Source: the human T2T-CHM13v2.0 reference genome, Homo sapiens
Direction: 5' to 3' (one strand)
DNA: 64,000 bases
Assembly: GCF_009914755.1 (NCBI RefSeq)
Contig: NC_060930.1
Part shown: piece after piece, positions 43,221 through 46,330 of the stretch
Layout of the letters: the number at the start of each line of letters is the position of its first letter
Position numbering within the stretch: position 1 is the first letter of the stretch
The notes under the pieces: model-generated
What the model was told of the DNA's origin: nothing
Databases searched by the model: none
What the model saw: only the letters and a program-made list of their open reading frames with translations
Made by a program: the position numbers and the translations under genes

Positions 43221-43494
43221 AATTCATAAATGGAATCTAGTGAGTAAAAGCTATTTTTTGTTTTCTTTTTGGTGAGGTTCAGTCACTTATTGTTATGATG
43301 ATGAAAATGATGGATGTGTCATTGGTGACATCAAAAGATCTGGAAGGACAATAATAGTCGCATTGATTCAGTTGAAGCAAAAGTACAAAACTCTGTAGTC
43401 CAAGTAATTACCACAAAGGAATTGTAATCATACTTTTTTTTTAATTTGAATTTTTGTTAAGGGAAAAAAATTGTATTTTACATGAAAAACAATT

Positions 43495-46185
43495 ATTTAT
43501 TTATTTATTTATTTATTTTATTGATCATTCTTGGGTGTTTCTCACAGAGGGGGATTTGGCAGGGTCATAGGACAATAGTGGAGGGAAGGTCAGCAGATAA
43601 ACAAGTGAACAAAGGTCTCTGGTTTTCCTAGGCAGAGGACCCTGCGGCCTTCCGCAGCGTTTGTGTCCCTGGGTACTTGAGATTGGGGAGTGGTGATAGG
43701 CGGTGATAGGTGAGATAGGCGGTTTTTCCCCATCTCAGTAGATGGAACGTACAATCGGGTTTTATACCGAGACATTCCATTGCCCAGGGACGGACAGGAG
43801 ACAGTTGCCTTGCTCTTGTCTCAACTGCAAGAGGCATGCCTTCCTCTTATACTAATCCTCCTCAGCACAGACCCTTTACAGGTGTCGGGCTGGGGGACGG
43901 TCAGGTCTTTCCCTTCCCAAGAGGCCATATTTCAGACTATCACATGGGGAGAAACCTTGGACAATACCTGGCTTTCCTAGGCAGAGGTCCCTGTGGCCTT
44001 CTGCAGTGTTTGTGTCCCTGGGTACTTGAGATTAGGGAGTGGTGATGACGCTTAAGGAGCATGCTGCCTTCAAGCATCTGTTTAACAAAGCACATCTTGC
44101 ACCGCCCTTAATCCATTTAACCCTGAGTTTGACACAGCACATGTTTCAGAGAGCACAGGGTTGGGGGTAAGGTCACAGATCAACAGGATCCCAAGGCAGA
44201 AGAACTTCTCTTAGTACAGAACAAAATGAAAAGTCTCCCATGTCTACCTCCTTCTACACAGACACGGCAACCATCCGATTTCTCAATCTTTTCCCCACCT
44301 TTCTCCCCTCTCTATTCCACAAAGCCGCCATTGTCATCCTGGCCCGTTCTCAATGAGCTGCTGGGCACACCTCCCAGACGGGGCCGTGGCCGGGCAGAGG
44401 CACCCCTCACGGCCCGGATGGGGCGGCTGGCCGGGCGGGGGGCTGACCCCCCCACCTCCCCCCCGGACGGGGCGGCCGGCCGGGCAGAGGGGCTCCTCAC
44501 TTCCCAGTAGGGGCGGCCGGGCAGAGGCGCCCCTCACCTCCCGGACGGGGCGTCTGGCCGGGCGGGGGGCTGACCCCCCCACCTCCCTCCCGGACGGGGC
44601 GGCTGGCCGGGTTGGGGGCTGACCCCCCCACCTCCCTCCCGGATGGGGCGGCTGGCCGGGCAGAGGGGCTCCTCACTTCCCAGTAGGGGCGGCCGGGCAG
44701 AGGCGCCCCTCACCTCCCGGACGGGGCGGCTGGCCGGGCGGGGGGCTGACCCCCCCACCTCCCTCCCGGACGGGACGGCTGGCCGGGCGGGGGGCTGACC
44801 CCCCCACCTCCCTCCCGGACGGGGCGGCTGGCCGGGCGGGGGGCTGATTCCCCCCACCTCCCTCCCGGACGGGGCGGCTGGCTGGGCAGAGGGGCTCCTC
44901 ACTTCCCAGTAGGGGCGGCCGGGCAGAGGCGACCCTCACCTCCCGGACGGGGCAGCTGGCCGGGCGGGGGGCTGACCCCCCCACCTCCCTCCCGGACTGG
45001 GCGGCTGGCCGGGCGGGGGGGCTGATCCCCCCACCTCCCTCCCGGACGGGGCGGCTGGCTGGGCAGAGGGGCTCCTCACTTCCCAGTAGGGGCGGCCGGG
45101 CAGAGGCGCCCCTCACCTCCCGGACGGGGCGTCTGGCCGGGCGGGGGGCTGACCCCCCCACCTCCCTCCCGGACGGGACGGCTGGCCGGGCGGGGGGCTG
45201 ACGCCCCCACCTCCCTCCCGGACGGGGCGGCTGGCCTGGCGGGGGGCTGACCCCCCCACCTCCCTCCAGGACGGGGTGGCTGCCGGGCGGAGACGCTCCT
45301 TACTTCCCAGACGGGGTGGCTGCCGGGTGGAGAGGCTCCTCACTTCTCAGACGGGGCGGCTGCCGGGCAGAGAGGCTCCTCACTTCTCATACGGGGCGGC
45401 TGCCCGGCGGAGGGTCTCCTCACTTCTCAGACGGGGCGGCCGGGCAGAGACGCTCCTCACCTCCCAGACGGGATGGCGGCCGGGCAGAGGCGCTCCTCAC
45501 ATCCCAGACAGGGCGGCGGGGCAGAGGCGCTCCCCACATCCCAGACGATGGGCGGCCGGGCAGAGACGCTCCTCACTTCCTAGATGTGATGGCGGCCGGG
45601 AAGAGGCGCTCCTCACTTCCCAGATGGGATGGCGGCCGGGCAGAGACGCTCCTCACTTTCCAGACTGGGCAGCCAGGCAGAGGGGCTCCTCACATCCCAG
45701 ACGATGGGCGGCCAGGCAGAGACGCTCCTCACTTCCCAGACGGGGTGGCGGCCGGGCAGAGGCTGCAATCTCGGCACTTTGGGAGGCCAAGGCAGGCGGC
45801 TGGGAGGTGGAGGTTGTAGCGAGCGGAGATCACGCCACTGCACTCCAGCCTGGGCGCCATTGAGCACTGAGTGAACCAGACTCCGTCTGCAATCCCGGCA
45901 CCTCGGGAGGCCGAGGCTGGCGGATCACTCGCGGTTAGGAGCTGGAGACCAGCCCGGCCAACACAGCGAAACCCCGTCTCCACCAAAAAAATACGAAAAC
46001 CAGTCAGGCGTGGCGGCGCGCGCCTGCAATTGCAGGCACTCCGCAGGCTGAGGCAGGAGAATCAGGCAGGGAGGTTGCAGTGAGCCGAGATGGCAGCAGT
46101 ATAGTCCAGCTTTGGCTCGGCATGAGAGGGAGACCGTGGAAAGAGAGGGAGAGGGAGACCATGGGGAGAGGGAGAGGGAGAGGGC
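43495..46185 (-). mobile_element. Full-length SVA retrotransposon (probably SVA_D-like) with an atypical, expanded SINE-R
   Basis: CCCTCT hexamers ~46125-46185, Alu-like region ~45760-46120, GC-rich VNTR ~44370-45760, SINE-R ~43515-44370, AATAAA + (TAAA)n tail; TSD GAAAAACAATT at 43484-43494 and 46186-46196. Confidence 0.95.
43717..44046 (-). mobile_element. HERV-K(HML-2) LTR5 U3 segment embedded in the SVA SINE-R
   Basis: Minus strand CCTAGGAAAGCCAGGTATTGTCCAAGGTTTCTCCCCATGTGATAGTCTGAAATATGGCC...GGTATAAAACCCGATTGTACGTTCCATCTACTGAGATGGGGAAAAACCGCCT matches recalled LTR5 sequence that lies in the SINE-R deletion. Confidence 0.85.
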
Positions 46186-46330
46186 GAAAAACAATTTTAA
46201 ATCCTCAAAAGTTGTCAGATCTGGAATTGCTAAGTGGGCCTAAATAAAATTTTTTGCATATAAATAATGTTTCTCTTTAAGATGTAAAAAATAATATATA
46301 TATTTTAACTATGTATGTCTATACATATAA

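What the first reader, a model, noticed from the sequence alone, without database searches (positions are those of the whole stretch)
43619..44160. Chimeric SVA that appears to have re-acquired the HERV-K LTR5 promoter segment missing from canonical SINE-R
Established: SINE-R of SVA is a HERV-K LTR with a ~370-bp internal deletion that joins ...CCTAGGAAAACC to AGAGACCTTTG... Seen: that SVA junction is intact at ~43612-43630, yet upstream in element orientation there is a second 79-bp copy of the pre-deletion segment (43968-44046 vs 43619-43697). The second copy has LTR5-type bases (GGAAAGCC, GGGACC) and continues into ~250 bp of U3 (43717-43967), including TATAAAA at 43760-43766. A 19-nt filler (43698-43716, AGGCGGTGATAGGTGAGAT) is built from short copies of both neighbours. 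Net gain is 349 bp inside an element with intact TSDs. GTCAAACTCAG near 44130 also looks LTR5-like while 44180-44260 looks SVA-like, so the switch-in may lie near 44130-44160. Inference: template switching during reverse transcription, or ectopic gene conversion from an LTR5 donor, restored retroviral promoter/enhancer sequence to a mobile non-LTR element. Any promoter activity would point leftward, antisense to H4C11 ~1.6 kb away.
Basis: partly seen in the sequence, partly recalled or inferred. Interest (0 to 1): 0.82.

Follow-up and report, generated by a model that had tools for sequence, protein, structure and literature searches.

The report
SVA patched from neighbouring HERV-K LTR
An SVA retrotransposon in the human histone cluster carries about 420 bases copied, after it inserted, from a solitary HERV-K LTR 51 kb away, a tidy one-off example of DNA repair between related repeats rather than a new kind of mobile element.

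Summary
A minus-strand SVA (43495-46185, 11-bp TSDs) has 349 extra bases in its SINE-R: a second, 92%-identical copy of a 79-nt segment, 251 bases of HERV-K LTR5 U3 that 28 of 28 compared SVAs lack, and a 19-nt filler.

New here is the donor. It is a 969-bp solo LTR5 at window -7850..-6882, 51 kb away on the same strand. The tract is 99% identical to it and at most 97% to the other scored copies. All 4 strictly private donor variants inside the tract are shared. A 35-mer spanning two of them occurs only at these two places in the genome.

Upstream, the tract starts seamlessly inside shared homology (44157-44130). Downstream, it ends at a non-homologous junction with a locally templated filler. 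No sister copy of the junction was found.

Best reading: post-insertion ectopic repair that started by homology and finished by end joining. Reverse-transcriptase template switching is unlikely.

Only 251 of the 367 missing LTR bases returned. The published LTR start sites and initiator lie at or beyond the SVA's 3' end, so "promoter restored" is unsupported. This is a new example of a known process; interest is modest.

The parts
43484..43494 (.). Left target-site duplication GAAAAACAATT
43495..43522 (-). Degenerate poly(A) tail (AAAT repeats) and AATAAA signal (43517-43522)
43517..43618 (-). SINE-R 3' part, homologous to LTR 698-799; 87% identical to the donor, so not converted
43619..43697 (-). 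Original SVA-type copy of the 79-nt pre-deletion segment (LTR 252-330), abutting the canonical SINE-R deletion junction
43698..43716 (-). 19-nt filler at the non-homologous junction (element orientation ATCTCACCTATCACCGCCT)
   Evidence: made of ACCGCCT (end of tract), ATCACC (start of the 79-nt copy) and ATCTCA (14-15 nt away on either side). Matched nowhere else in the genome search.
43717..43967 (-). LTR5 U3 segment (LTR 331-579/581) that canonical SVAs lack. It was copied from the donor, which lies outside the window: a solo HERV-K(HML-2) LTR5, 969 bp, minus strand, window places -7850..-6882 (G000:C6:27644150-27645118; locus L002:1111-2079).
   Evidence: absent from 28 of 28 SVAs compared. 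Donor: homology to 18 other LTR5 loci stops at the LTR ends; 5-bp TSD TTCTC; 99% identical to the tract; only other genomic place with the 35-mer.
43968..44046 (-). Second, donor-type copy of the 79-nt segment
44047..44130 (-). Converted SINE-R sequence upstream of the repeat (donor-type, including the private C at 44050)
44131..44156 (-). Switch interval: 26 bases identical in SVAs and the donor, within which the tract begins
44157..44360 (-). Unconverted SVA-type SINE-R 5' part (LTR start at 44298; env-derived 44299-44360)
   Evidence: SVA-type at 17 of 17 diagnostic sites; the donor's private bases at 44172 and 44166 are absent.
44388..45763 (-). SVA VNTR
45764..46123 (-). SVA Alu-like region
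   Evidence: Read. It aligns to other SVAs (L045, L057).
46124..46185 (-). 5' hexamer-type repeat (GAGAGG/GAGGGA on the + strand)
   Evidence: (D7, D8)
46186..46196 (.). Right target-site duplication GAAAAACAATT

Best explanation
A canonical SVA first inserted here by L1-type retrotransposition (shown: hexamer, Alu-like, VNTR, SINE-R, poly(A), 11-bp TSDs). Later, at the DNA level and in place, 412-440 bases were copied into its SINE-R from the solo HERV-K LTR5 lying 51 kb away on the same strand.

The most likely route is inferred. A break occurred just 5' (element orientation) of the 79-nt segment. The VNTR-side end lost or had corrected up to about 110 bases, invaded the LTR5 through SINE-R/LTR homology, and was extended along it. 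Synthesis ran through the 79-nt homologue and 251 bases further into U3, which the SVA has no counterpart for. The displaced strand was then joined to the other break end by microhomology-driven end joining, leaving a 19-nt filler stitched from local sequence.

This accounts for the duplicated 79-nt segment, the one seamless and one ragged junction, and the unchanged donor. A replicative template switch (see rivals) would give the same product. I put about 0.8 on in-place DNA copying from this LTR, split roughly 2:1 between break repair and a replication switch.

The result is a partial return of U3 enhancer-region sequence, not a rebuilt LTR promoter.
For: Donor identity:
- The tract is 99% identical to L002; the other 38 scored matches are 96-97%.
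- All 4 of L002's strictly private sites inside the tract (LTR 248, 296, 486, 504) are shared with the SVA. Its 2 private sites just upstream of the tract (LTR 126, 132) are not shared.
- A 35-mer over two private sites, with up to 1 mismatch, occurs at only 2 places in the 3.1-Gb genome: the tract and L002.

In place and after insertion:
- Donor and recipient are 51 kb apart on the same strand. For an unrelated insertion, about 102 kb / 3.1 Gb, or 3e-5, would fall that close (arithmetic coordinates).
- The 86-nt junction query matched full length only to itself; the 39 other scored matches, of 61 candidates, covered one side only.
- A 511-nt query across the SVA-type and U3 parts found no other SVA. 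The five best 6-511 matches fetched were provirus env+LTR without VNTR.

Junction anatomy:
- SVA-type at 17 of 17 diagnostic sites up to 44157 and LTR5-type at 4 of 4 from 44130 on, with no duplication at that side.
- A filler with local templates sits at the other side.

Donor intact: 969 bp with its own TSD.

No flank paralogy: homology between the two loci is confined to the LTR-derived part.
Against: - The SINE-R/LTR homology upstream of the switch is only about 87% by my count of the sites, which is low for strand invasion.
- The copied strand contained a 79-nt homologue of the other break end and could have annealed there cleanly, but did not.
- L002 today reads G at LTR 580, where the SVA and 17 of 17 other LTR5s read C. 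Either the tract ended 2 bases earlier, or L002 changed afterwards.
- No ape or human population data could be consulted, so 'post-insertion' rests on donor proximity and uniqueness, not on an observed allele without the insert.
- The genome search scores only the best candidates (40 per call), so absence of sister copies is not exhaustive.
Confidence: 0.8

Rival explanations
1. Replication-based template switching (FoSTeS/MMBIR type). A stalled or collapsed fork in the SVA let the nascent strand switch to the LTR5 51 kb away, copy about 420 bases, and switch back using microhomology with a filler.
For: It gives the same product: a templated insertion from a nearby cis donor, and a microhomology/filler junction. 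The GC-rich VNTR next door is a plausible fork obstacle; that last point is inference.
Against: One junction lies in long homology with replacement of recipient sequence. That is the usual signature of homologous invasion, not of two microhomology switches. The sequence alone cannot separate the two routes.
Confidence: 0.25
2. Template switching by the L1 reverse transcriptase during the SVA's own insertion. The cDNA started on SVA RNA, jumped to an RNA carrying LTR5 U3, then jumped back to the SVA RNA in shared homology.
For: The whole chimera lies inside intact TSDs. Fillers and microhomology occur at RT template jumps (general knowledge, recalled).
Against: - The template would have to be RNA from this one LTR locus, because its variants are unique in the genome.
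- The SVA would then have to land within 51 kb of it, about 3e-5 by chance.
- U3 of a solo LTR is not in its own transcript (general knowledge of LTR transcription; start sites at 793/826 in the passages of PMC4379556).
- No sister copies were found.
Confidence: 0.05
3. Assembly artefact: reads from the LTR5 were spliced into the SVA.
For: None found. Repeats are where assemblies fail (general knowledge).
Against: The tract differs from L002 at 4 sites (44056, 43994, 43805, 43731), and perhaps at 43718. It has a unique 19-nt filler and a duplicated segment that differs at 6 of 79 bases. A collapse or mis-join of existing reads would not create these.
Confidence: 0.02

Closest known systems
Coupled homologous and non-homologous repair of a double-strand break (one-ended gene conversion finished by end joining; synthesis-dependent strand annealing with microhomology/polymerase-theta-type joining). 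Named from recall; no paper on it was read here.
   Same: Non-reciprocal copying from an ectopic homologous donor that stays intact. One junction lies in homology. The other is non-homologous with a short filler templated from nearby sequence. There is no crossover: the 51-kb interval with its histone and tRNA genes is still present (hub annotation).
   Different: This is a natural germline event, inferred from one allele, between two different repeat families. No enzyme dependence is shown.
Ectopic gene conversion among HERV-K LTRs and among other dispersed repeats (Alu, L1). Recalled as established; not read here.
   Same: Sequence transfer between non-allelic copies, recognised by shared private variants and a mosaic of diagnostic sites.
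   Different: The recipient is an SVA, a non-LTR composite whose SINE-R descends from the HERV-K env/LTR. The transfer also adds sequence the recipient family lacks, with a duplication and filler, rather than swapping like for like. Three full-text searches listed no paper whose title or abstract start describes SVA-from-LTR5 conversion. I opened passages of only three of them.
Canonical SVA retrotransposon
   Same: Hexamer, Alu-like, VNTR, SINE-R with the internal LTR deletion junction, AATAAA, A-rich tail and 11-bp TSDs are all present.
   Different: It carries 349 extra bases in SINE-R that 28 of 28 compared SVAs lack. The subfamily (A-F) was not determined, because no reference consensus was at hand.
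L1-mediated chimeric retrocopies made by RT template switching (U6-L1 type; SVA 5' transduction and MAST2-SVA groups). Recalled.
   Same: A composite of two sources inside one pair of TSDs.
   Different: Those chimeras draw on abundant or upstream RNAs, spread as families, and have donors unrelated in position to the insertion. Here the donor is the neighbouring locus and the junction is unique.

Membership tests
SVA retrotransposon | Composite order: hexamer repeat, Alu-like, VNTR, SINE-R, poly(A) signal and tail | tested here: met
   The VNTR and Alu-like parts align to other SVAs and SINE-R to 28 SVAs.
SVA retrotransposon | Target-site duplication of L1 type | tested here: met
   11-bp GAAAAACAATT at 43484-43494 and 46186-46196. 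The reconstructed empty site holds a TTTT/AA-like stretch (my reading, inference).
SVA retrotransposon | SINE-R lacks LTR 331-697 (367 bp in the donor's numbering) | tested here: inconclusive
   The canonical deletion junction is intact at 43618/43619, but LTR 331-579/581 is present again 19 nt upstream of the 79-nt segment. The element is canonical plus a secondary insertion.
HERV-K(HML-2) LTR5 solo LTR (the donor, L002) | Full LTR bounded by TG...CA, with a short TSD and no internal proviral sequence | tested here: met
   969 bp, starts TGTGGGG and ends ...TTCA, flanked by TTCTC on both sides. Homology with 18 other LTR5 loci ends at the LTR borders. Assignment to LTR5_Hs, LTR5A or LTR5B was not tested.
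Non-allelic gene conversion / ectopic templated repair | Identified donor sharing private variants across the tract only | tested here: met
   4 of 4 strictly private donor sites inside the tract are shared; 0 of 2 just outside are shared. The 35-mer occurs at 2 genomic places only.
Non-allelic gene conversion / ectopic templated repair | Non-reciprocal, donor unchanged, no crossover | tested here: met
   The donor is full length with its TSD. The interval between the two loci is present in the window and the hub annotation.
Non-allelic gene conversion / ectopic templated repair | An ancestral allele of the recipient without the tract | not testable with these tools
   Only this one human assembly is searchable. 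No ape or pangenome data were available.
Polymerase-theta-type templated insertion | Short filler copied from sequence within tens of bases of the junction | tested here: met
   16 of 19 bases are covered by words of 6 or more from the 60-nt flanks; 36 of 5000 shuffles reach this. A 10-nt ACCGCCTATC repeat spans both filler borders. Enzyme involvement is not testable.
RT template-switch chimera | Donor RNA independent of the insertion site; chimeric copies may propagate | tested here: not met
   The donor is the neighbouring locus. No second copy of the junction was found.
Functional HERV-K LTR promoter | GC boxes, TATA/initiator and start site (nt 602-606, 759-763, 790-797, 807-812; start at 793 or 826) | tested here: not met
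   Motif positions come from passages of PMC4379556, mapped through the donor's numbering (offset about 1). Positions 582-697 are still absent, and SVA homology ends at LTR 799. Returned: the GA motif and two E boxes, one altered at 43805. Activity was not tested.

The most novel reading that the evidence does not exclude
The returned U3 piece (GA-rich motif and E boxes of the HERV-K enhancer region), added to the KLF-bound SINE-R, makes this SVA behave like an LTR5-type enhancer or antisense promoter in germline or naive pluripotent cells. It would act on the flanking histone genes H4C11 and H4C12. More broadly, SINE-R/LTR5 homology would let SVAs repeatedly pick up retroviral regulatory sequence from nearby LTRs.
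Probability: 0.08. Interest if true: 0.6.

Novelty: new member of a known kind. Interest (0 to 1): 0.35.

Why it matters
The 79-330 region that SVAs share with HERV-K LTR5 is enough for DNA-level exchange between the two families. A repair event can therefore hand a non-LTR element sequence that its whole family lost at its origin.

The case is unusually well resolved. The donor, both junctions, the filler and a rough age of a few million years can all be read from the sequence. That makes it a useful natural example of homology-started, end-joined repair in the human germline.

It also warns that repeat annotation of this locus (an SVA interrupted by an LTR5 piece) reflects one secondary event, not a nested insertion or a new SVA subfamily. 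Any regulatory consequence for the histone cluster is untested.

Tried and rejected
- **Sister copies or a source element.** An 86-nt junction query and a 511-nt query across the SVA-type and U3 parts found none. The five best long matches fetched are provirus env+LTR ends without VNTR.
- **Flank paralogy driving the exchange.** The whole 3.2-kb donor locus against the window shows only the LTR-derived matches and a partial Alu.
- **Another LTR5 inside the window as donor.** None was found.
- **A break-site hotspot.** One SVA (L037) has an insertion at almost the same SINE-R site. It is an ordinary Alu with its own TSD, so I treat it as coincidence.
- **Literature.** Three full-text searches gave no paper describing SVA-from-LTR5 conversion by title or abstract start. 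Passages opened in PMC12673149 and PMC5753468 were irrelevant to the question. PMC6509360 only states that KLF4 binds a piece common to LTR5Hs and SINE-R.
- **Errors corrected.** A pattern given as a window reference was not accepted and was re-sent as letters. One paper search failed on a two-letter term and was re-sent with different terms.

Full report
**What is there.**
The window holds a full-length SVA on the minus strand at 43495-46185.
- In element orientation it starts with a hexamer-type repeat (46124-46185), followed by an Alu-like part.
- Next come a VNTR (arrays called at 44388-45763), a SINE-R, an AATAAA at 43517-43522 and a degenerate A-rich tail.
- It is flanked by GAAAAACAATT at 43484-43494 and 46186-46196.

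**The observation.**
- The repeat finder reports 43619-43697 and 43968-44046 as a 79-nt direct repeat, 92% identical, 349 nt apart (D6).
- Other SVAs align to SINE-R positions 1-393 and 664-865 of this element as one contiguous stretch with a 79-nt overlap. This element therefore carries 349 extra bases.
- The 251 bases at 43717-43967 matched LTR5 copies at 96-99% in all 39 non-self matches scored, of 1250 first-look candidates.
- The 19 bases at 43698-43716 matched nothing but themselves.

**SINE-R against the LTR.**
In the numbering of the donor LTR described below, the 79-nt segment is LTR 252-330, and the SVA resumes at LTR 698. Canonical SINE-R therefore lacks LTR 331-697, which is 367 bp. 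The insert returns LTR 331-579/581. Positions 582-697 are still missing.

**The donor.**
- The best non-self match of the U3 piece, at 99% against 96-97% for the other 38, lies at G000:C6:27644540-27644788. That is on the same strand, 51 kb to the left.
- The locus (L002) holds a 969-bp LTR (G000:C6:27644150-27645118, window places -7850..-6882) whose homology to 18 other LTR5 loci stops at its ends. It is flanked by TTCTC on both sides, so it is a solo LTR.
- I aligned the SINE-R with this LTR, 17 other LTR5 copies and 28 SVAs. Three LTR5 loci with internal rearrangements or partial matches were left out, as were several SVAs with internal deletions or insertions (L005, L007, L022-L026, L028, L037, L038, L050).
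- From 44298 to 44157 the element has the SVA base at 17 of 17 sites where the two families differ. It also lacks the donor's private bases at 44172 and 44166.
- From 44130 on it has the LTR5 base at 4 of 4 such sites.
- It shares with the donor bases that none of the other copies has: 44050 (0 of 28 SVAs, 0 of 17 LTR5s), 43812 and 43794 (0 of 17 LTR5s each).
- It also shares bases that few others have: 44002 (2 of 28 SVAs, 0 of 17 LTR5s), 43920 (1 of 17 LTR5s) and 43880 (2 of 17 LTR5s).
- In a full-length comparison of 17 LTRs, the donor has 8 strictly private sites. The 4 inside the tract are all in the SVA, and the 2 in the homologous region just outside are not.
- A 35-base pattern over 43786-43820, with up to 1 mismatch, occurs at exactly two places in the 3.1-Gb assembly: the tract and the donor.

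**Order of events and mechanism.**
- The donor's variants are unique to its locus, so the template was that locus or its transcript.
- If the chimera had formed on RNA during retrotransposition, the SVA would have had to land within 51 kb of it, about 3e-5 by chance.
- I found no sister copy of the junction and no other SVA with U3 after the 79-nt segment. Only 40 candidates are scored per search, so this is not exhaustive.
- The upstream boundary is seamless, inside 26 bases that are identical in both families. It replaces SVA sequence rather than adding to it.
- The downstream boundary is non-homologous. It carries a filler made of ACCGCCT (the tract's last bases), ATCACC (the first bases of the 79-nt segment) and ATCTCA (found 14-15 nt away on either side). 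16 of 19 bases are explained this way, and 36 of 5000 shuffles do as well.
- One homologous and one end-joined junction, a duplicated recipient segment and an intact donor are what homology-started, end-joined repair of a break would leave. The break would have lain just 5' of the 79-nt segment, and synthesis overshot into U3. A replicative template switch would look the same.
- Homology between the two loci is limited to the LTR-derived part.

**Date.**
Inside the tract the SVA and the donor differ at 44056, 43994 (a CpG site), 43805 and 43731, and perhaps at 43718. Three of the changes are on the SVA side. Four differences in about 412 bases is about 1%. At commonly used human rates (0.5-1 x 10^-9 per site per year, recalled) that means several million years, with a Poisson range of roughly 1 to over 20. 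The event is old and probably fixed, but I could not check apes or other humans.

**Function.**
Passages of PMC4379556 place these HML-2 LTR features:
- a GA-rich motif at nt 379-386;
- E boxes at nt 465-476 and 485-496;
- GC motifs at nt 602-606 and 759-763;
- the TATA-like AATAAATA at nt 790-797;
- an initiator at nt 807-812;
- start sites at 793 or 826.

Mapped through the donor (offset about 1), the tract returns the GA motif and the two E boxes. The second E box carries the SVA-specific T>A at 43805. The 602-606 motif is still absent. The 759-797 part was always in SINE-R, and SVA homology ends at LTR 799, before the initiator and the 826 start. The TATAAAA at 43760-43766 is not among the elements those authors list. 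PMC6509360 (passages) reports KLF4 binding to a piece common to LTR5Hs and SINE-R, so SVAs already carry enhancer sequence without this insert. A restored promoter is therefore not supported, and added enhancer strength is possible but untested. Any transcript in element sense would run leftward towards H4C11, whose 3' end is 1.3 kb from the SVA tail (hub annotation).

**Comparison and novelty.**
The process is known: ectopic gene conversion and coupled homologous and non-homologous repair (named from recall). The pairing of an SVA with the LTR family its SINE-R came from did not appear in three full-text searches (judged from listings and a few passages). I rate it a new member of a known kind, of modest interest.

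Noticed in passing
L037:1806-2145 (G000:C15, about 73.35 Mb): Another SVA has an Alu insertion, with a long A tail and TSD AAGAGTCATCACCA, at almost the same SINE-R position as the inferred break in this element. It looks like coincidence, not a shared event.
   Followed up: partly
L016 (G000:C22:12639859-12640109) and L019 (G000:C14:9942237-9942487): These two LTR5 copies on different chromosomes are nearly identical. The maximum pairwise identity in the set is 0.999, and they have 0 and 1 private sites. A recent duplication carrying the LTR would explain it.
   Followed up: no
L024, L028 (G000:C19 20.67 Mb; C3 5.11 Mb) and L025/L038 (G000:C13 48.72 Mb): These SVAs have internal SINE-R deletions relative to this element: about 21 bases after the 79-nt segment in two loci, and about 108 bases in one. 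They may be subfamily markers or local deletions.
   Followed up: no
L022:1531-2760 (G000:C4 108.81 Mb): This SVA has a roughly 1.2-kb insertion inside SINE-R, near the same region. The insertion matches neither the window nor the donor LTR. Its identity is unknown.
   Followed up: partly
L005 and L007 (G000:C13 48.82 Mb; C12 123.49 Mb): These LTR5 copies have internal rearrangements: a roughly 300-base interruption in L005 and a roughly 35-base gap in L007.
   Followed up: no
window 43484-43494 / 46186-46196: Joining the flanks gives an empty site reading ...CAATTTTAAAT..., which contains a TTTT/AA-like stretch of the kind the L1 endonuclease nicks (motif recalled).
   Followed up: no
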